A stretch of DNA of 64,000 bases from Phycisphaerae bacterium (GCA_050115495.1 JASFQK010000009.1:1-64000), one strand, 5' to 3'; positions 21,939 to 63,521 are shown, counted from the first letter of the stretch. Numbers and translations are program-made. The notes: a model not told the origin generated them from the sequence alone.

Positions 21939-23372
21939 ATGACTACGATCGAGATGTTGGCAGACGGGGTGCTTGTACTGCCGCGAGCACTCGACGCCCT
22001 GCGCGTCCACCTGATTGGAATTGGCGGCAGCGGTATGGCCGGATTGGCCGCGTTTCTGCTGCGCCGCGGTTCGAGCGTCAGCGGCTCGGATATGCAGCCC
22101 GGCGATGAGGTCCGCCGCCTCGCCGAAGCCGGTGTGCACGTCGCCGAGCCCGGCACCGAGGCAATCCCGCCCGACGTAGATCTCGTCGTGCGCTCCGCCG
22201 CCGTGCCCGACACGCAGCCGGAAGTGGTCGAAGCCCGCCGCCGCGGCGTACCCGTGGTGAAATACGCCCAGGCGCTCGGGGCACTCATGTCCCACTGCGC
22301 CGGCGTGGCCATCAGCGGCACCCACGGCAAGAGCACGACCACCGGCTGGCTCAGCTACGTCCTGCGCGAAGCCGGGCTCGACCCCAGCTTCGTCATCGGC
22401 GCCAGCGTTCCCCAGCTTGGCGGCGGCAGCGGCGCCGGCGACGGACCGCACTTCGTCGCCGAAGCCTGCGAGTACGATCGCTCGTTCCTCAACCTCCGGC
22501 CGCAACGCGCCGCCATCCTCAACATCGAGGAAGACCACCTCGACTGCTACCGCAACCTGGCGGCGATCGAGGCCGCGTTCGCCGAGTTCGCCGCCCGCGT
22601 GCCGGCCGACGGTCTGCTGGTCACCAACGCGAATGACGCAAGCTGCCGCCGCGTCGCCGCTCACGCCACCTGCCGCGTCGAGACCTTCGGCTTCACCGAT
22701 GCGGCAGACTGGTCGGCCAGCGAACTCGTCCCCGAGCGCGGCTGCTACGCCTTCAGCGTCTCGCACCGCACGAAGATGCTCGGCCGCATTTCCGTTGGTC
22801 TGCCTGGCCGGCACAACGTCGCCAACGCCCTCGCCGTTATGGCCCTGGCCACGGACTGCGGCGCCCAGTGGGAGCAGATCGTGCCCGCCCTGGCCAGTTT
22901 CCGCGGCGTCCGCCGGCGGCTCGAGCTGCGCGGCAAGGCCCGCGGCGTGCGCGTACTCGACGACTACGCCCACCATCCGACCGAAATCCGGGCCACCCTC
23001 GCCGCCGCCCGGCAGCGCTACGAGCCGCGCCAGCTCTGGTGCCTCTTCCAGCCGCACCAGCACTCGCGAACGCGCTTCCTGCTGTCCGCCTTCGCCGAGA
23101 GCTTCGCCCAGGCCGACCACGTCGTCGTGCCCGACATCTACTTCGTCCGCGACAGCGAGCGGGAACGCGAAGCGGTCAGCGCCGAGGACCTCGTCGAACG
23201 CATCCGCGCCCGCGGCGACGACGCCGAGTTCCTCCCCTCCTTCGACAGCATCGTGACCCGCGTCGTGGCGGCGGCACAGCCGGGCGACGTGGTCATCACC
23301 ATGGGCGCCGGGAACATCTGGAAGGTCGCCGATGAGCTGCTTCGCCGGCTTCGAGAAGATCTGCCAGCCTGA
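21939..23372 (+). CDS. murC: UDP-N-acetylmuramate--L-alanine ligase
   Basis: HLIGIGGSGMAGLA, SGTHGKSTT, EACEYDRSFL, DDYAHHPTE, FQPHQHSRT. Confidence 0.95.
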   Translation: MTTIEMLADGVLVLPRALDALRVHLIGIGGSGMAGLAAFLLRRGSSVSGSDMQPGDEVRRLAEAGVHVAEPGTEAIPPDVDLVVRSAAVPDTQPEVVEARRRGVPVVKYAQALGALMSHCAGVAISGTHGKSTTTGWLSYVLREAGLDPSFVIGASVPQLGGGSGAGDGPHFVAEACEYDRSFLNLRPQRAAILNIEEDHLDCYRNLAAIEAAFAEFAARVPADGLLVTNANDASCRRVAAHATCRVETFGFTDAADWSASELVPERGCYAFSVSHRTKMLGRISVGLPGRHNVANALAVMALATDCGAQWEQIVPALASFRGVRRRLELRGKARGVRVLDDYAHHPTEIRATLAAARQRYEPRQLWCLFQPHQHSRTRFLLSAFAESFAQADHVVVPDIYFVRDSEREREAVSAEDLVERIRARGDDAEFLPSFDSIVTRVVAAAQPGDVVITMGAGNIWKVADELLRRLREDLPA

Positions 23373-28061: not shown

Positions 28062-30227
28062 ATGGTGAAGGTGCAGTTGCCCGACGGCAAAATGGTCGAG
28101 CATTCGGACGGCGTGACCGTAGCAGAGGTCCTGCGCGCGATCAGTCCGCGCCTGGAACAGGCCGCCGTTGCCGCCAAGCTCAATGACCAGGTGGTGGACC
28201 TGAGCACCCGGCTGACTGAGCCGGTCAGCACGGTGGTCGCGCTGAAGCTCAGCGACCGCGACGGTCTGGAGGTCGCTCGGCACAGTTGTGCCCACGTGAT
28301 GGCCGAGGCGATTTGCAGCCTCTGGCCCCAGACGAAGCTCGTCTATGGTCCGCCCGTTGAGAACGGTTTCTATTACGACATTGACCTCGATCATTCGCTG
28401 ACGCCGGAAGACTTCGACCGGATCGAGAAGCGGATGGACGAGATCGTCGCCGAGGACCGGCCGTTCCGCCGGTACGAGATGCCGCGCGCCGAGGGCATGA
28501 CCAAGCTCCAGGCGGAAGGCAACGAGTACAAGCTGGACAACGCCGAGCGGGCCGGTGGCGACACGCTGAGCTTCTACGTGACCGGCGAGCCGGGCACGAG
28601 CGCCTTCGAGGACTTGTGCCGCGGGCCGCACGTGCCGAGCTCGGGACGGGTCGGGGCGTACAAGATCATGCAGGTGGCCGGGGCGTACCACCACGGCGAC
28701 GCCAGCCGCAGGATGCTGCAACGCATCTACGGCACGACGTGGCCGGACAAGAAGGCGCTGCGGCAATACCTCAACATGCTCGAAGAGGCCAAGAAGCGCG
28801 ATCACCGGCGCATCGGCCAGGAGCTGGGGCTGTTCACGATCAGTCCGCTGGTCGGAACGGGCTTGGCCCTGTGGAAGCCGCGCGGGGCGATGATCCGCTA
28901 CATTCTCGAAGAAACGCTCCGCCGCGAGTTGCTGGCGCACGGCTATCAGCCGGTGTATACGCCGCACATCGGGCGGCTCGACCTGTACCGCACGAGCGGG
29001 CATTTCCCCTACTACAAGGATGCCCAGTATCCGCCGCTGTTCGAATCCGAGCGGGCGCGGCTGCTGAACATGCTGTGGGAGATGGCCAGGGCGTCGCCGG
29101 ACGGCAAGGCGCAGCCGGAGGAGATCGCGCTTTACGAGCGACTGGCCGAGCAGCACGCTGACCTGCGCAACGACGGCTATCCGGCCGAGGCGCCGGCGGC
29201 CGAGCGGCAGCGGCGCATCCGCTCGTGGCTGGCCGTGGAAGACGGCTATCTGCTCAAGCCGATGAACTGCCCGCACCACATCCAGATCTACAACTCGGAG
29301 GCGCGGAGCTACCGCGACCTGCCGGTGAAGCTGGCCGAGTTCGGGCAGGTGTACCGCTACGAGCAGTCGGGTGAGGTCAGCGGGCTGACGCGCGTGCGCG
29401 GCTTCTGCCAGGACGACGCTCACGTGTTCTGCACGCCCGAGCAACTGCCGGCGGAAATCGCCGAATGCGTCGAGCTGTCGCAGTACGTGCTGCACCTGAT
29501 CGGGCTGAACGACTACCGCGTGCGGATCGGTCTGCGTGATCCGGCGAGCGACAAGTACATCGGCACGGACAAGAACTGGGAGATGGCGCAGGAGGCCCTG
29601 CGGGCTTCGGTGCGCTCGACCGACCTGGAGTGGTCGGAAGAGGTCGGCGAGGCGGCGTTCTACGGGCCGAAGATCGACTTCGTGGCCCGCGACTGCATCG
29701 GCCGCGAGTGGCAGCTCGGCACCGTGCAGGTCGACTACAACCTGCCCGAGCGCTTCGCCCTGACCTACGCCGGCGACGACAACAACGAACACCGGCCGGT
29801 GATGGTGCACCGCACGCTCTTCGGCAGCATGGAGCGGTTCGTCGGTATCCTGATCGAGCATTACGCGGGCAAGTTCCCGCTGTGGCTGTCGCCGATCCAG
29901 GTGACGGTCTGCAACGTCAGCGACAAGTCGGCCGCGTACGCCCGGCAGGTGTACGACAAGTGCCGAGAGGCGAGCCTGCGGGTCGAGCTGGATGACAGCG
30001 ACGACCGGATCGGGGCGAAGATCCGCCGGGCGACGCTGATGAGAGTTCCGTACATCCTGGTCGTTGGCGAGCAGGAGGTCGAGAACGGCCAGGTCAATGT
30101 GCGTACGCGCGAAGGAGAGCAGCAGGGAAGTCACCGGCTGCCGGAGTTCCTGGCCGCGTGTGCGCTGGAGATTATCAACCGGGGCCAGGCGTGCCCCGCC
30201 GGTGAAGGCCAGGCGCCGGCGACGTAG
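28062..30227 (+). CDS. thrS: Threonine--tRNA ligase
   Basis: TGS N-terminus, RHSCAHVMA, DLCRGPH, KPMNCPHH, YRYEQSGE, AFYGPKIDF, GSMERF. Confidence 0.97.
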   Translation: MVKVQLPDGKMVEHSDGVTVAEVLRAISPRLEQAAVAAKLNDQVVDLSTRLTEPVSTVVALKLSDRDGLEVARHSCAHVMAEAICSLWPQTKLVYGPPVENGFYYDIDLDHSLTPEDFDRIEKRMDEIVAEDRPFRRYEMPRAEGMTKLQAEGNEYKLDNAERAGGDTLSFYVTGEPGTSAFEDLCRGPHVPSSGRVGAYKIMQVAGAYHHGDASRRMLQRIYGTTWPDKKALRQYLNMLEEAKKRDHRRIGQELGLFTISPLVGTGLALWKPRGAMIRYILEETLRRELLAHGYQPVYTPHIGRLDLYRTSGHFPYYKDAQYPPLFESERARLLNMLWEMARASPDGKAQPEEIALYERLAEQHADLRNDGYPAEAPAAERQRRIRSWLAVEDGYLLKPMNCPHHIQIYNSEARSYRDLPVKLAEFGQVYRYEQSGEVSGLTRVRGFCQDDAHVFCTPEQLPAEIAECVELSQYVLHLIGLNDYRVRIGLRDPASDKYIGTDKNWEMAQEALRASVRSTDLEWSEEVGEAAFYGPKIDFVARDCIGREWQLGTVQVDYNLPERFALTYAGDDNNEHRPVMVHRTLFGSMERFVGILIEHYAGKFPLWLSPIQVTVCNVSDKSAAYARQVYDKCREASLRVELDDSDDRIGAKIRRATLMRVPYILVVGEQEVENGQVNVRTREGEQQGSHRLPEFLAACALEIINRGQACPAGEGQAPAT

Positions 30228-59617: not shown

Positions 59618-59705
59618 GGGCGCGGGTCCCTGACTTGTATTGCAGAAGTTGTTGATGAGATTCCCGCTCGGGATCGTCCTGAGGCGGAGCACAGTTGGAA
59701 GGAGC

Positions 59706-60623
59706 ATGGTAATGAGCATTCGTTGTATGGGATGGATCGCGGCCGCCGGCTTGATGCTGGCCGCAACCGGTATCGTGGTGGCGGACACGCCGAAGGCGGA
59801 CGACGCGCTGACGCAGGCGAACGCGCTGCTGGCGAAGGCGGACTTCGACGGGGCGATGAAGGTGCTACTGGCGGCGGCGAAGGCCGAGCCCGACAACCAG
59901 GTCTATCGGGAGCAGGCGACGCTGCTGCGGCAGGTGATCCGCGTGCGCGAGGCACTGCCGAAGCTGGAAGGCACCGAGAAGTGGACGCTCAACGCCCAGG
60001 CGCTGTGCGCGTACTACAACGACAAGATGATCTACAGCGAGGCGCTGCCGCTGGCGCGGAAGCTGCACGAGCAGTCGCCGACGACCGACACGGCGGTGGT
60101 CCTGGCCCGCATCGAGCTGGCCCTGGACAAGAACGACGACGCGGCGAAACTGCTTGGCGGCCTGGTCGCGGAGCAGACGACGCCGGAGACGCGCGTGTTG
60201 CTGTGCCTGGCGTTGGCCCGGCAGAAAGAACTGGACGCGGCTCGCGGAGCGCTGGGTGAGTTCGAGGTGCCCGAGAACGCCGGCTGCGAGATGCTGTACG
60301 ACCTGGCCTGTGCGCAGGCCTGCCTGGGACAGAAGGACGAGTGCCTGGCGACGCTGACGCGCTGCTTCGAGTGCACGCCGCCAGGGCGGCTCGATTGCCT
60401 GAAGTGCCGGGCGCAGTGCTGCGGTGACTTCGCCAGCATGAAGGAGAGCTGCTGCTTCAACAAGGCGATGGCCACCGAGTCGAAGGTCGCGGATACGTGC
60501 AGCGGCGGGACGAGCTGCGGCAAGTGCCCGGCGCGCGGCGGGTGCTCGGGCAAGACCACCAGCTCGTGCCAGGACAAGTCGAAGGACGAGTGCAAGGACC
60601 ACGATCAGAAGCCGAAGCCGTAA
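59706..60623 (+). CDS. Secreted TPR-like protein with Cys-rich C-terminus
   Basis: Signal peptide, helical repeats, 18 Cys in the last ~113 aa including CSGGTSCGKCP. Confidence 0.75.
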   Translation: MVMSIRCMGWIAAAGLMLAATGIVVADTPKADDALTQANALLAKADFDGAMKVLLAAAKAEPDNQVYREQATLLRQVIRVREALPKLEGTEKWTLNAQALCAYYNDKMIYSEALPLARKLHEQSPTTDTAVVLARIELALDKNDDAAKLLGGLVAEQTTPETRVLLCLALARQKELDAARGALGEFEVPENAGCEMLYDLACAQACLGQKDECLATLTRCFECTPPGRLDCLKCRAQCCGDFASMKESCCFNKAMATESKVADTCSGGTSCGKCPARGGCSGKTTSSCQDKSKDECKDHDQKPKP

Positions 60624-60713: not shown

Positions 60714-61892
60714 ATGAAATACACCCGCCGACTTATTCAGCTTGCGTTTCTTACGCTCACCGTGGTCGCCGTCTTTGTCGTACGCGGCAACGCCGAGCGG
60801 TGGTGCCCGTTCGGAGGCGTCGAGGCGATCTACCAGTACACGCAGGAAGGAAACCTGCTGTGCTCGCTGGGCGTGTCGAACTTCTACGTGCTGGCGGCGG
60901 TGCTGCTGAGCACGCTGCTGCTGCGGCGGGCGTTCTGCTCGTACATCTGCCCGCTGGGCACGGTGTCGGAGTGGCTCGGAGCGGGTGCCCGAAAGCTCGG
61001 CCTGCCCCAATGGCGGGTGCCGCATGCGCTGGACCGCGTGCTCGCCCTGCTGAAATACGTCGTGCTGGTCGCGATCCTGTACTTCACGTGGCGCGTGGGC
61101 GAATTGGTCTTCCGCGGGTACGACCCGTGCTACGCCCTGCTCAGCCGGCACGGTGAGGACATCACGATCTGGGCGTACGTCATCTGCGGCGTACTCGTCG
61201 TGGCGTCCCTGCTGGTGATGCTGCCGCTGTGCCGATGGCTGTGCCCGCTGGCGGCGGTGCTGAACCCGTTCTCCTGGCTGGGCCTGACCCGCATTCGCCG
61301 CGGCGACGAAGCGTGCATCGAGTGCGGCGCGTGCGCGGCTGCGTGCCCGATGGGCATTCGCGTCGATCGCGTGCGCGAGGTGACGGCCGCTCGCTGCACC
61401 GGGTGCTTCGAATGCACCGAGGCGTGCCCGACGCGCGGCGACGGGGCGCTCGTCTGGGGACCGCCGAAGAAGCTCGGCCGATCGTGGCCGCGCGGTGCGC
61501 TGGTCGCCGTGTTGCTGGCGTGTATCGGCGGAGCGGTCGTGCTGGCGTACGCGCTGCCATTGCCCTCGTTCGTGCACACGCGAGGCACGCCGCCGGCGGA
61601 GATCGCGAGCGTCGAGTTGGGCGTGCACGATCTGACGTGCCGGGGGCGGGCGAACCTGTTCGTCTACTACGTCGAACGGGATGACTACCTGGCCGTGCCG
61701 GGGTACCTGCGCATCGAGGCGTGGCCGGGGCCGGGAGCGGCACGCTGCGTCATTTCGTACGACCCGGCGGAGACGGACGAGAGCCAGATCAAGGCGGCGA
61801 TTACGGAGCCGTATTTCGATGCGCTGGGCGGTTCGTGGCGGCCGTCGCCGTTTCGGATCGAGGGGTATGATCCGTTGTTTGGAGAGGAGTAG
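60714..61892 (+). CDS. Membrane 4Fe-4S protein (NapH/MauN/YccM-like) with C-terminal HMA-like domain
   Basis: WCPFGG, FCSYICPLG, CRWLCP, CIECGACAAACP, CTGCFECTEACP; then V.DLTC...YDP.......I..AI. Confidence 0.85.
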   Translation: MKYTRRLIQLAFLTLTVVAVFVVRGNAERWCPFGGVEAIYQYTQEGNLLCSLGVSNFYVLAAVLLSTLLLRRAFCSYICPLGTVSEWLGAGARKLGLPQWRVPHALDRVLALLKYVVLVAILYFTWRVGELVFRGYDPCYALLSRHGEDITIWAYVICGVLVVASLLVMLPLCRWLCPLAAVLNPFSWLGLTRIRRGDEACIECGACAAACPMGIRVDRVREVTAARCTGCFECTEACPTRGDGALVWGPPKKLGRSWPRGALVAVLLACIGGAVVLAYALPLPSFVHTRGTPPAEIASVELGVHDLTCRGRANLFVYYVERDDYLAVPGYLRIEAWPGPGAARCVISYDPAETDESQIKAAITEPYFDALGGSWRPSPFRIEGYDPLFGEE

Positions 61893-61942: not shown

Positions 61943-62185
61943 GCCTTGAGCCTTGAGCCGGACGGTGTGGCATGCTGAAGCCTTAGGCGCCGGCATGTCT
62001 TTCCCTCGCGTCAGGAAGAACATGCCGGCGCTGCGCTTCGGCATGCCACACTCGGGCACTGGTGGGCGAGTCAGCGGTGACACCGACGCGGAGCGCCGTC
62101 TGTCCGAGCCGCGACCGGTGGGCAGTGGTCTGCGCAGACGGTGCGTTGCTGGCGACGACCCGCTCGCTACCGCTCGGGGCTCGGA
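61943..62185. repeat. Mosaic cluster of REP-like palindromes
   Basis: GTGGCATGCTGAAGCCTTAGGCGCCGGCATG...CATGCCGGCGCTGCGCTTCGGCATGCCACA (as at 4005 and 17530) and CGACCCGCTCGCTACCGCTC (as at ~4185). Confidence 0.85.
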
Positions 62186-62249
62186 TAGGCGTTGACACGC
62201 CGCGCCCGGCGCTACGGGTGGTGGGAGAAACCGGTTGTGGACGGGGGAT

Positions 62250-62298
62250 AAAAAAGCCGGCGGAGGGTTCCGCGTGAATAACGGAACGGCCTCCGCCG
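62250..62298 (-). terminator. Intrinsic terminator
   Basis: Minus strand CGGCGGAGG..GTTCCG / CGGAAC.CCTCCGCCG followed by GCTTTTTT. Confidence 0.7.
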
Positions 62299-62640
62299 AG
62301 CGGCAATACGTGCATCACTCTTCGTTAGGAAGGGGAGCCAGTGACGCACGAAAAAGCGGAAGGACCAGCGTGAAGCCGACCCTCCCAAAAAGCATTGCTT
62401 ATGCTCATCGTTGAAGCAGACGCGGCGAGAAACGACTGGTACCGCAGTCACCGACCTTTCGGCTCCCACTGAAAGGTGGAACTCGTACCGCTGCTGCCTA
62501 CCCTTCCGTTCGTTTGGCTCCCTTACTCTCCGCCGGAAGGGCGAGGGCTGTACTTACCTTCCCACGTGTTGGCTCCCATGTTGTGGAAGGTGTGCTTCTT
62601 GAACTACCTCCGCATCTGCCCCTCTCGAAAGAGCAACAGC
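62250..62640 (-). ncRNA. Putative novel structured non-coding RNA
   Basis: Eight or more stems, several completed only by G-U pairs on the minus strand; three GGGAGCC loops; U-tract terminators; no credible ORF. Confidence 0.65.
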
Positions 62641-62707
62641 GAAAAATGTTAGGCACGCTGGGCGGCGGATTTCCACTTCTGCCCCATAAAAAGTGGAGAA
62701 TAGAGCG

Positions 62708-62720
62708 CAAGCTCTTGATA
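62708..62720 (-). promoter_or_regulatory. IHF-consensus site between the putative ncRNA and efp
   Basis: TATCAA-GAGC-TTG matches WATCAANNNNTTR. Confidence 0.4.
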
Positions 62721-62957
62721 TTGCGATGGTTACAGTGCGAGATTCTCGGCAGAGTGCAATGGGACGGCCGCCGACGGCCATTGGCGACCGGCGGGCGTGG
62801 AAACCCGGCGGCGGCGCGGGCCCGCGGTCGCCAAGCGTCGGCGATTCAGCTATATTGTGTGGCTCGTCAACAAGTTACGTCGGCAGACCCCTGCGGAGCG
62901 CGTGCGCCGAGCCGCCGGGGCCCGGCGGCAGCACGGCAGGAACAGGAGCGGGCGCTC

Positions 62958-63521
62958 ATGGCCAAAGCGAGCGAACTGAAAAAGGGCAAGGTCATCCAGT
63001 ATCAGGACGGCCTCTACTCGATCTTCGACATTACGCGGGTCTCGAAGGGCAACTGGCGCAGCTACCTCCAGGCCAAGCTCAAGTCGCTGACGACCGGGCA
63101 GATCCTCGACGTCCGCTTCTCGGTCGACGACAAGGTCGAGACCCCCTTCGTCGACACCAAGCCGTACGAGTACCTCTACCGCGACGGCGAGGACTACGTG
63201 ATCATGGACCAGCAGAACTACGACCAAGTCACGATTCCGGCGGACGTCATGGGCGACGCCCATCTGTACCTGAAGGGCAACGAGCTCGTGACATGTTCGT
63301 TCGTCGACGGGAAAATCGTGAGCGTCGAGCTGCCGAACGTGGTGGAGCTAAGCGTGACCGATACACCGCCGGTGGCCCGCGGGGCCACGGCAACGAACCA
63401 GAGCAAGGATGCCACGCTGGAGACGGGGTTGCGCGTGCGCGTGCCGCCGTTCATCGAGAACGGCGAGCTGATTCGCGTCGACACCCGCACGGGTGAGTAT
63501 CTGGAGAGGGCCAAGGGGTGA
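62958..63521 (+). CDS. efp: Elongation factor P
   Basis: ASELKKG, YLYRDG, MD...YDQ, GATA....K.A.LETG....VP.FI..GE...VDTR.GEY..R; AGGAG SD. Confidence 0.93.
   Translation: MAKASELKKGKVIQYQDGLYSIFDITRVSKGNWRSYLQAKLKSLTTGQILDVRFSVDDKVETPFVDTKPYEYLYRDGEDYVIMDQQNYDQVTIPADVMGDAHLYLKGNELVTCSFVDGKIVSVELPNVVELSVTDTPPVARGATATNQSKDATLETGLRVRVPPFIENGELIRVDTRTGEYLERAKG

What the first reader, a model, noticed from the sequence alone, without database searches (positions are those of the whole stretch)
62250..62640. Undescribed structured RNA: three periodic GGGAGCC-loop hairpins plus a complementary UGGCUCCC-loop hairpin
Seen, reading the minus strand 5'->3': a 5' hairpin CUGUUGCUCU-UUCG-AGAGGGGCAG. Then three related hairpins (ACCUUCC/GGAAGGU, CCCUUCCG/CGGAAGGG, ACCUUUC/GAAAGGU), each showing GGGAGCC in the loop; plus-strand GGCTCCC starts at 62571, 62516 and 62461, exactly 55 nt apart, with variable flanks. 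The third sits in a multibranch closed by GCAG-GCGG-CGAG/CUCG-CCGC-CUGC. Next come a 12-bp stem needing four G-U pairs plus a U-tract (~62351-62386), a 10-bp hairpin CGUGCGUCAC/GUGAUGCACG whose loop carries UGGCUCCCCUUCC (complement of the three loops and of GGAAGG; 62333-62340), and a terminator. The G-U pairs fix the strand. A -10-like TAACAT (~62646-62651) and an IHF consensus lie upstream, divergent from efp. I saw no RNase P, tmRNA or SRP signature. Inference: one acceptor loop for three donor loops suggests kissing-loop switching or RNA multimerisation. Alternatives are a CsrA-type GGA sponge with a built-in antagonist, or a small guide-like array (constant-variable-constant units).
Basis: partly seen in the sequence, partly recalled or inferred. 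Interest (0 to 1): 0.85.

Follow-up and report, generated by a model that had tools for sequence, protein, structure and literature searches.

The report
Two-terminator small RNA with complementary loops
This is a real, expressed, previously uncatalogued small non-coding RNA of one family of uncultured Phycisphaerae, which shows a G-rich loop motif three times and its exact complement once, most likely so that the two kinds of loop can pair and hold each other in check.

Summary
On the minus strand, 62640-62250, lies an RNA gene with its own promoter. It has three hairpins showing GGGAGCC, an internal terminator (T1), a hairpin showing GGCUCCC(C), and a second terminator (T2). Rfam 15 has no match and my literature searches found none.

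A covariance model of the 3' part finds relatives in 38 of 72 genomes of the same family and in 0 of 118 genomes of ten other families of the order. 36 of 37 modelled pairs change on both sides (alignment fitted to the model).

The RNA is modular. In several genera the donor hairpin plus T1 and the acceptor hairpin plus T2 are separate, adjacent sRNA genes, often with a CCUCCUCC sRNA between them. The window's genus has them fused.

A U-tract follows helix 1 in 23 of 24 RNAs with donors upstream and in 0 of 18 without. One paralogue changed donors and acceptor together (GGAAGCCC with GGGCUUCC). Metatranscriptome contigs of four studies cover 62332-62630.

Best reading: a G-rich decoy and a C-rich seed that pair loop to loop without Hfq, like RosA/RoxS or RsaI. 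Function is inferred, not shown. A CsrA sponge is weakly supported. Multimerisation is untested.

The parts
62250..62640 (-). Whole RNA gene, full-length form of about 390 nt from the predicted start to the T2 U-tract
   Evidence: Promoter and terminators. Folding z-score is -3.9 on this strand against -2.4 on the other. CM matches are on this strand only.
62646..62693 (-). Promoter: T-rich stretch (62693-62683), -35 TGGAAA (62675-62670), 17-nt spacer, -10 (C)TAACAT (62651-62646)
   Evidence: TGGA[AC]N-17 nt-CTAnnnT is found upstream of 36 of 42 family members by regex. The consensus scan did not list it.
62616..62639 (-). 5' hairpin CUGUUGCUCU-UUCG-AGAGGGGCAG, with one G-G mismatch
   Evidence: Read. 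Relatives have a 5' hairpin of different sequence. Not tested further.
62556..62591 (-). Donor hairpin 1, GGGAGCC at 62577-62571 in a 22-nt loop
   Evidence: 7-bp stem. The same hairpin is present in 6 of 6 close relatives.
62500..62542 (-). Donor hairpin 2, GGGAGCC at 62522-62516
   Evidence: 9-bp stem. In relatives the stem sequence differs but still pairs. One relative (G002) has GGAAGCC here.
62416..62497 (-). Multibranch domain holding donor hairpin 3 (62477-62454, GGGAGCC at 62467-62461). The 3' stem strand starts directly after the motif.
   Evidence: fold; this geometry holds in 28 of 29 distinct terminal donor hairpins. Mean stem is 7.3 bp against 2.5 in shuffles.
62390..62406 (-). 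Small hairpin GAGCAU-AAGCA-AUGCUU before T1
   Evidence: Fold. Not conserved in sequence in relatives.
62347..62387 (-). T1: internal intrinsic terminator. 13-pair stem with five G-U/U-G pairs, then CUUUUU.
   Evidence: terminator scan. It is helix 1 of models R1/R2, where 12 of 12 pairs change on both sides. A U-run of 4 or more follows it in 23 of 24 RNAs with donors upstream and in 0 of 18 without. RNA contigs end at 62345, 62332 and 62382.
62309..62350 (-). Acceptor hairpin: 10-bp stem, GGCUCCC(C) at 62339-62332 unpaired on the 5' side, small inner helix CUUC/GAAG
   Evidence: Helix 2 of R2: 10 of 10 pairs change on both sides. The motif is kept in 41 of 42 members. Its unpaired probability is 0.83.
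62250..62304 (-). T2: terminal intrinsic terminator with U-tract 62255-62250
   Evidence: Helices 3-5 of R2: 14 of 15 pairs change on both sides.

Best explanation
A stand-alone small-RNA gene, transcribed from the minus strand from about 62640. It is a fusion of two modules that are separate sRNA genes in sister genera.

Module D runs from the start to T1 (about 290 nt). It shows the G-rich word GGGAGCC in the loops of three hairpins and ends at the intrinsic terminator T1.

Module B runs from the acceptor hairpin to T2. It shows the C-rich, anti-Shine-Dalgarno-like word GGCUCCC(C) in an unpaired loop and ends at terminator T2.

The two words pair loop to loop over 7-8 GC-rich pairs, with no Hfq needed. 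The G-rich RNA therefore acts as a decoy (sponge) for the C-rich seed RNA, whose other targets would be mRNAs.

In this genus, termination at T1 yields decoy-only RNA. Read-through yields an RNA that carries three decoys and one seed, so the seed is masked or titrated by its own transcript.

Shown: the gene, its structure, conservation, modularity, the complementarity, and presence in RNA libraries.

Inferred: that the loops pair in the cell, which partner regulates which, and any mRNA target.
For: 1. Real structured RNA. No Rfam match. The 3' module covaries: 92.9% of cells are paired and 36 of 37 pairs change on both sides. The covariation score is 0.499, against 0.121 or less when partners are slid (41 distinct sequences).

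2. Distribution. 38 of 72 genomes of family f1 in 23 of 40 genera. 0 of 118 genomes of ten other families of the order. An exact-pattern scan of 185,579 species gave 21 loci. The 13 from Phycisphaerae/Planctomycetota MAGs matched the full model; the 8 others did not.

3. Both words are the invariant letters. GGCUCCC is in 41 of 42 acceptors. GGGAGCC is in all 24 fused RNAs and in the donor-only genes.

4. Compensatory change. In the tandem paralogue L018:946-1093 the acceptor is GGGCUUCCC and the donors are GGAAGCCC and GGGAAGUC, while its neighbour keeps GGGAGCC/GGCUCCC.

5. Separate genes. Donor hairpin plus T1 without an acceptor lies some 500-700 nt upstream of an acceptor-only RNA with its own promoter in L040, L043, L044, L049, L017 and L056.

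6. The geometry suits loop pairing. The donor word sits at the 3' end of the loop next to the stem in 28 of 29 hairpins. The acceptor word sits at the 5' start of its loop. Unpaired probabilities are 0.65-0.72 and 0.83. The duplex energy is -16.8 kcal/mol.

7. T1 is a terminator only where donors lie upstream: 23 of 24 against 0 of 18.

8. Expression. Contigs from metatranscriptomes of four studies lie at 62345-62630 (depth 151, no mismatch), 62382-62615, 62332-62612 and 62454-62620. None lies on the flanking genes.

9. No Hfq or ProQ was found in this 92%-complete genome.

10. Known precedent. G-rich sponge RNAs pair with C-rich seed sRNAs in Firmicutes, namely RosA with RoxS/FsrA (PMC8216469, passages read). 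RsaI combines G-tracks with a pyrimidine-rich seed in one RNA (10.1101/278127, passages read).
Against: - No experiment or cross-linking data shows that the loops pair.
- The complementarity is conserved mostly without variation, and invariance says nothing for pairing. The single compensatory case is one evolutionary event.
- The contigs show neither strand nor true ends, and DNA can be present in RNA libraries.
- No mRNA target was found. GGGAGCC upstream of candidate start codons occurs 12 times against about 6.6 expected, which is inconclusive.
- Acceptor-only RNAs exist in genomes where my exact pattern found no donor gene (for example G079, G080, G048, G084). The acceptor therefore has a role that does not need the donor.
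- Genomes are related, so the counts overstate independence.
- The A5 alignment is fitted to the model.
Confidence: 0.45

Rival explanations
1. One folded RNA with an internal tertiary contact. The donor and acceptor loops form an intramolecular kissing contact or pseudoknot that shapes a structured RNA whose real job is something else, for example binding an unknown protein or ligand. The extra donors are duplicates.
For: Many members have one donor and one acceptor in the same transcript (L020, L023-L026, L028, L055). The donor word abuts the 3' stem strand, as in an H-type pseudoknot. 9 of 17 acceptor-only RNAs start with a 5-7-nt complement of the acceptor within their first dozen bases. 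The paralogue pair in L018 keeps cognate specificities within each RNA.
Against: A conserved terminator lies between donors and acceptor in 23 of 24 fused RNAs. The laid contigs cover the donor part and stop at or just beyond T1, so the two would often be on different molecules (weak). Donor-only genes exist. The number of donors varies from 1 to 4, which is unusual for a fixed tertiary fold.
Confidence: 0.2
2. Protein decoy. The GGGAGCC hairpin loops are binding sites for an RNA-binding protein (CsrA or another), as in CsrB/RsmZ. The complementary loop is a built-in competitor.
For: Each loop holds GGA in its middle. CsrA is encoded in 71 of 72 genomes of the family. The purine strands of the donor stems hold further GGA. 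Some fused RNAs show mild GGA excess, with z up to 2.7.
Against: GGA is barely enriched. The window RNA has 10 against 7.2 expected (z 1.5) and the opposite strand also has 10. Acceptor-only RNAs are at z about 0. A 7-nt invariant word with an invariant complement is more than CsrA needs. CsrA lies next to fliW, the arrangement in which a protein, not an sRNA, antagonises CsrA (from general knowledge). CsrA is present in genomes with and without the RNA, so there is no co-occurrence signal.
Confidence: 0.13
3. Multivalent self-assembly. Read-through RNA with three donors and one acceptor links head to tail or branches into RNA-only oligomers or condensates.
For: The valency is 3:1, the loop-loop duplex is strong (-16.8 kcal/mol), and all four loops are predicted unpaired.
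Against: Most family members have one or two donors. Donor and acceptor are often separate genes. The RNA is small and its linkers are poorly conserved, unlike the ornate multimeric RNAs (recalled). It has no Rfam match to any family.
Confidence: 0.07
4. Guide-like array of constant-variable-constant units that serves an effector protein.
For: Repeat-like period of 49-57 nt with a constant word and variable flanks.
Against: The variable flanks pair with each other as stems. No neighbouring protein gene is conserved across genera: efp only in the window's genus, a MoxR-type ATPase, SpoIIE and others elsewhere. Unit number is 1-4.
Confidence: 0.02

Closest known systems
RosA sponge RNA and the C-rich sRNAs RoxS/FsrA of Bacillus subtilis (PMC8216469, passages read)
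   Same: A stand-alone sRNA with accessible G-rich regions pairs with the C-rich regions that another sRNA uses to bind ribosome-binding sites. It works in an organism without an Hfq hub. Decoy and seed are separate genes, as in the Phycisphaerae genera with separate donor and acceptor genes.
   Different: No sequence or model similarity: there was no Rfam match at E up to 10 on the region. Here the G-rich word is a fixed 7-mer shown in hairpin loops. Decoy and seed genes are neighbours, or are fused with a terminator between them. The sponge effect is not shown here.
RsaI (RsaOG) of Staphylococcus aureus (bioRxiv 10.1101/278127, passages read)
   Same: One RNA carries both G-tracks that bind C-rich sRNAs and a pyrimidine-rich region that binds mRNAs. 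This matches the fused form in the window, which has G-rich donors and a C-rich loop.
   Different: In RsaI the two regions are not complementary to each other and no terminator separates them. Here they are exact complements and a conserved terminator lies between them. No homology was detected.
CsrB/RsmZ-type CsrA-sequestering RNAs
   Same: Repeated hairpins whose loops hold GGA. CsrA is present in the genome.
   Different: GGA is not clearly enriched. There are only 1-4 sites. The conserved word is 7 nt and has a conserved complement. CsrA is paired with FliW.
'Cuckoo' anti-Shine-Dalgarno sRNAs (CcsR, NfeR1; Rfam ar14; PMC4615179 seen in search listing only)
   Same: The sRNA that sits between the donor and acceptor genes in relatives carries CCUCCUCC words like the cuckoo loops. 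The acceptor word CUCCCC is a related C-rich, anti-SD-like seed.
   Different: Different phylum. No Rfam match on five cluster loci. The CCUCCUCC RNA is a neighbour of this finding in other genomes, not part of the window locus.

Membership tests
Any Rfam 15 family (incl. RsaOG, RsaE/RoxS, CsrB/Rsm, ar14, 6S, tmRNA, RNase P, SRP, OLE/ROOL/GOLLD) | Covariance-model match at or near the family's gathering score | tested here: not met
   no match on 62150-62750 other than two chance-level rows (E 0.46 and 1.7, far below gathering); 0 matches at E up to 0.1 on five related cluster loci.
Independent sRNA gene with intrinsic terminator | Own promoter, GC-rich stem plus U-tract, not part of a flanking coding gene | tested here: met
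   Promoter conserved in 36 of 42 members. T1 and T2 found. The flanking genes are convergent (4Fe-4S protein) and divergent (efp).
sRNA / sponge-RNA pair (RosA-RoxS kind) | Accessible complementary regions on two separately transcribed RNAs | tested here: met
   Separate donor and acceptor genes in six loci. The words are complementary over 7-8 nt and are predicted unpaired.
sRNA / sponge-RNA pair (RosA-RoxS kind) | The sponge lowers the activity or stability of the partner and de-represses its targets | not testable with these tools
   Needs genetics or in vitro assays. All members are uncultured MAGs by their record titles.
sRNA / sponge-RNA pair (RosA-RoxS kind) | The seed RNA pairs with mRNA targets, typically at ribosome-binding sites | tested here: inconclusive
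   GGGAGCC lies 2-22 nt upstream of 12 of 7,567 candidate starts against about 6.6 expected. No conserved target was identified.
CsrA-sequestering RNA (CsrB/RsmZ kind) | Many GGA motifs, enriched and exposed in loops or linkers | tested here: not met
   the window RNA has 10 GGA against 7.2 in shuffles (z 1.5), and the reverse strand has 10. Across 36 members z runs from -1.0 to 2.7.
CsrA-sequestering RNA (CsrB/RsmZ kind) | CsrA present and bound by the RNA | tested here: inconclusive
   CsrA is present in 71 of 72 genomes, whether or not the RNA is found. Binding was not testable.
Kissing-loop / loop-loop interacting RNAs | Complementary loop sequences that co-vary | tested here: inconclusive
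   There is one compensatory case (L018:946 paralogue). Otherwise both words are invariant (41 of 42), which neither supports nor opposes pairing.

The most novel reading that the evidence does not exclude
A self-titrating riboregulator. Decoys and seed are encoded in one transcription unit and separated by a conserved intrinsic terminator. The termination/read-through ratio at T1, rather than two promoters, then sets how much free C-rich seed the cell has. With three decoys per seed, read-through molecules could further cross-link into RNA-only networks. This would be a regulatory logic not described for bacterial sRNAs, found in a phylum whose sRNA biology is essentially unknown.
Probability: 0.2. 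Interest if true: 0.75.

Novelty: new variant of a known kind. Interest (0 to 1): 0.58.

Why it matters
In the literature I searched, Planctomycetota, and Phycisphaerae in particular, have no characterised small RNAs. This locus gives a conserved, apparently highly expressed sRNA system in a clade that seems to lack Hfq and ProQ.

The system has a clear, testable pairing code: GGGAGCC with GGCUCCC. It also offers natural experiments, namely separate genes, fused genes, an orthogonal paralogue, and terminator presence tied to the donors. If the decoy/seed reading is right, G-rich sponges for C-rich anti-SD-like sRNAs, known from Firmicutes, arose independently in a distant phylum.

The fused form with an internal terminator is a compact design that could also interest RNA engineers.

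Tried and rejected
- **Rfam** at permissive thresholds on the region and on five related loci: nothing.
- **BLAST-level DNA search** in 40 relatives found only the 3' part, and only within the genus. Covariance models were needed.
- **Model R1** gave three false matches (L029, L032 = rpmE terminator, L033), recognised by inspection.
- **Target search.** GGGAGCC at Shine-Dalgarno distance occurs 12 times against 6.6 expected, so no conclusion.
- **Strong GGGAGCC-loop hairpins** downstream of paralogous repeat-protein genes in this genome looked like possible targets. The element is confined to this genome: 7 places in G000 and only short chance-level hits in 6 of 71 other genomes.
- **No further acceptor-type hairpin** was found in the genome.
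- **GGA enrichment** for CsrA is weak.
- **The IHF-like site** is not conserved.
- **RNA contigs.** The acceptor hairpin beyond 62332 and T2 were not covered in the four runs laid. Absence of cover proves nothing, so I draw no conclusion on read-through. Strand and true ends cannot be read from contigs.
- **Pattern scans.** 8 of 21 genome hits and 53 of 63 metagenome hits were chance matches by the model test.
- **Earlier-notes look-ups** by place and by sequence returned nothing.
- **Literature searches** found no description of this RNA. The library lacks most subscription journals.
- **Interrupted step.** The stem count was then done from stored loci by coordinates.

Full report
**What is in the window.**
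Read on the minus strand, the 1-kb gap between a convergent 4Fe-4S protein gene (60714-61892) and the divergent efp (62958-63521) holds a complete small-RNA gene.
- A T-rich stretch, TGGAAA (62675-62670), a 17-nt spacer and (C)TAACAT (62651-62646) precede it.
- From about 62640 come a 5' hairpin and then three hairpins whose loops hold GGGAGCC (62577-62571, 62522-62516, 62467-62461). The third lies inside a multibranch.
- A 13-pair stem with five G-U/U-G pairs and a U-tract follows (T1, 62387-62347).
- Next is a 10-bp hairpin with GGCUCCC(C) unpaired (62350-62309, word at 62339-62332).
- A strong terminator closes the gene (T2, 62304-62250).
- The minus strand folds better than shuffles (z -3.9) and better than the plus strand (z -2.4).
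- When 62640-62250 is folded, all four words stay unpaired (0.65-0.72 for donors, 0.83 for the acceptor). A donor-acceptor duplex is worth -16.8 kcal/mol.

Three details change. The 5' hairpin has a G-G mismatch. The exact 55-nt period is peculiar to this genome. The IHF-like site is not conserved.

**Not a known family.**
Rfam 15 gives nothing on the region at E up to 10 or on five related loci. Full-text searches for Planctomycetes/Phycisphaerae sRNAs and for the two words found no description (listings and abstract starts seen). The library lacks most subscription journals.

**Relatives.**
- Plain DNA search found only the 3' part, in 5 of 6 other genomes of the genus and in none of 34 further relatives.
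- A covariance model of the 3' module (T1 helix, acceptor hairpin, T2; R1) matched 25 of 72 genomes of the family. One of these was a false match.
- The model rebuilt from 27 true matches (R2) matched 38 of 72 genomes in 23 of 40 genera. It matched 18 of 32 family members but 0 of 118 genomes of ten other families of the order.
- On 42 matches (41 distinct), 92.9% of cells pair and 36 of 37 pairs change on both sides. The covariation score is 0.499, against 0.121 or less with slid partners and 0 of 500 shuffles. The alignment is fitted to the model and the genomes are related, so these figures lean high.
- An exact-pattern scan of one genome for each of 185,579 species returned 21 loci. The 13 from MAGs titled Phycisphaerae, Phycisphaerales or Planctomycetota are full model matches. 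The 8 from Actinomycetota and others are not.
- A metagenome scan added 10 true members out of 63 loci, including two more three-donor forms.

**The RNA is modular.**
Inspection of the loci shows three arrangements.
- *Fused form, as in the window.* One to four donor hairpins, T1, acceptor hairpin, T2.
- *Separate genes.* A donor RNA (promoter, one long hairpin with the loop NN(N)GGGAGCC, T1, and nothing more) lies about 500-700 nt upstream of an acceptor RNA. The acceptor RNA has its own promoter, a variable 55-77-nt 5' domain, the same helix 1, the acceptor hairpin and T2. This is seen in L040, L043, L044, L049, L017 and L056.
- *Acceptor RNA only.* Here my exact donor pattern finds nothing.

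Between the donor or fused gene and the acceptor gene there is often a third sRNA gene with two CCUCCUCC words. The same promoter type (TGGA[AC]N-17 nt-CTAnnnT) precedes 36 of 42 members.

**Evidence that the two words belong together.**
- GGCUCCC is kept in 41 of 42 acceptors.
- GGGAGCC, often GGGGAGCC, is in every fused RNA (24) and every donor gene seen.
- The one exception is informative. In G083 two fused RNAs lie in tandem. One has GGGAGCC with GGGCUCCCC. The other has GGAAGCCC and GGGAAGUC with GGGCUUCCC, that is, an extra A in the donors and an extra U in the acceptor. This is a single event, but three sites changed in step.
- In 28 of 29 distinct terminal donor hairpins the word ends exactly where the 3' stem strand begins, in a loop of 8-11 nt. 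Stems average 7.3 bp against 2.5 in shuffles, and they differ in sequence among relatives.
- In the seven three-donor RNAs the spacing is 49-57 nt, and the stems of hairpins 2 and 3 differ while still pairing.
- 9 of 17 acceptor-only RNAs begin with a 5-7-nt complement of their own acceptor loop. This leaves room for an internal contact.

**The internal terminator.**
Helix 1 of the model is followed by a U-run of four or more in 23 of 24 RNAs that have the donor word upstream. It is followed by one in 0 of 18 that do not. I defined the classes by the exact 7-mer within 260 nt, and the genomes are related. Selection therefore keeps a stop signal between donors and acceptor. That implies a donor-only transcript is a wanted product of the fused genes.

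**Expression.**
Six metatranscriptome runs of five studies hold part of the stretch. Four runs from four studies were laid. Their contigs lie at 62345-62630 (286 nt, depth 151, no mismatch), 62382-62615, 62332-62612 (one mismatch) and 62454-62620. None lies on efp or the other flank.
This fits a start near 62640 and an end at or just beyond T1. However, contigs show neither strand nor true ends, and an RNA library can hold DNA. I draw no conclusion from the lack of cover on T2.

**How it most likely works.**
- The organism has no detectable Hfq or ProQ in a 92%-complete genome.
- GC-rich loop-loop pairing of 7-8 bp needs no chaperone.
- C-rich loops are the seeds of Hfq-independent sRNAs that block ribosome-binding sites in Firmicutes. 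There, G-rich RNAs act as their sponges: RosA for RoxS/FsrA (PMC8216469, passages read), and RsaI, which has G-tracks and a pyrimidine-rich seed in one RNA (10.1101/278127, passages read).
- The 16S rRNA of this genome ends in CCUCCUUUCU, so CUCCCC is anti-SD-like and GGGAG is SD-like.
- I therefore read the donor module as a decoy for the acceptor module. I read the window's gene as a fusion in which T1 decides between decoy-only RNA and decoy-plus-seed RNA.
- Which partner is the regulator, and which mRNAs are hit, is not known. A crude test of GGGAGCC at SD distance gave 12 against about 6.6 expected.

**Rivals.**
- *Internal tertiary contact in an RNA with another job.* This fits the 1:1 members and the 5' complements of acceptor-only RNAs. 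It sits badly with a conserved terminator between the partners and with donor-only genes.
- *CsrA decoy.* CsrA is present in 71 of 72 genomes. But GGA is hardly enriched, the conserved word is longer than CsrA needs, CsrA lies beside fliW, and its presence does not track the RNA.
- *Multimerisation.* It is possible for the 3:1 read-through form but is untested.
- *Guide array.* Nothing favours it.

**Verdict.**
This is a genuine, conserved, expressed sRNA system restricted to one family of uncultured Phycisphaerae and absent from Rfam. Its kind, base-pairing sRNA with a sponge, is known. The fixed complementary loop code, the fusion, and the terminator tied to the donors are new variations. 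Function remains inferred.

Noticed in passing
L040, L042 (two copies), L043, L044, L049, L050, L051, L025, L026, L028 (between or upstream of the donor and acceptor genes); own genome G000 contig C19, minus strand, about 2,450-2,600: A third sRNA gene with the same promoter type. It has one to two CCUCCUCC(U) anti-Shine-Dalgarno-like words and a terminator, and resembles the alphaproteobacterial 'cuckoo' RNAs in motif only. No Rfam match on five of these loci.
   Followed up: partly
G000 C9 about 154,500-154,730 (outside the window), C13 about 69,755-69,964 and 64,562-64,677, C7 about 73,549-73,738, C53 about 29,130-29,340 and 23,130-23,210: A repeated structured element of about 230 nt downstream of paralogous genes with dockerin-like NNFDISPF repeats. 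It ends in a hairpin of up to 13 bp whose loop is CA(A)GGGAGCC, the same word as the donor loops. It is found only in this genome.
   Followed up: partly
L018 (G083:C27) 946-1093 and 1501-1642: Two fused RNAs lie in tandem with different, internally matched loop codes: GGAAGCCC/GGGCUUCC and GGGAGCC/GGCUCCC. The variant copy lacks the U-tract after helix 1.
   Followed up: partly
window 62708-62720 (-): The only WATCAANNNNTTR (IHF-like) match in the 64-kb window lies about 70 nt upstream of the RNA start. It is absent in 7 of 7 close relatives.
   Followed up: yes
5' ends of acceptor-only RNAs, e.g. L025:776-901 (-), L026:2157-2281, L040, L044, L054: 9 of 17 begin with (G)GGGAG(C), a 5-7-nt complement of their own acceptor loop. 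This could be a degenerate donor or a constraint of the initiation region.
   Followed up: partly
Terminal donor hairpins of several relatives (L016, L018, L020, L041, L052): The 5' stem strand reads CCUCCUUUC, identical to the 3' tail of this genome's 16S rRNA (CCUCCUUUCU), and is paired with a GAAAGGAGG-like strand. The stem thus looks like an SD/anti-SD duplex. The window's own hairpin 3 has CACCUUUC.
   Followed up: no
window 60852-60908 (+) and 59701-59821 (+): Two sub-threshold Rfam rows (IRES_Bip, E 0.0033, 21 bits against gathering 40; snoZ206, E 0.37) lie inside coding sequence. I treat them as chance.
   Followed up: no
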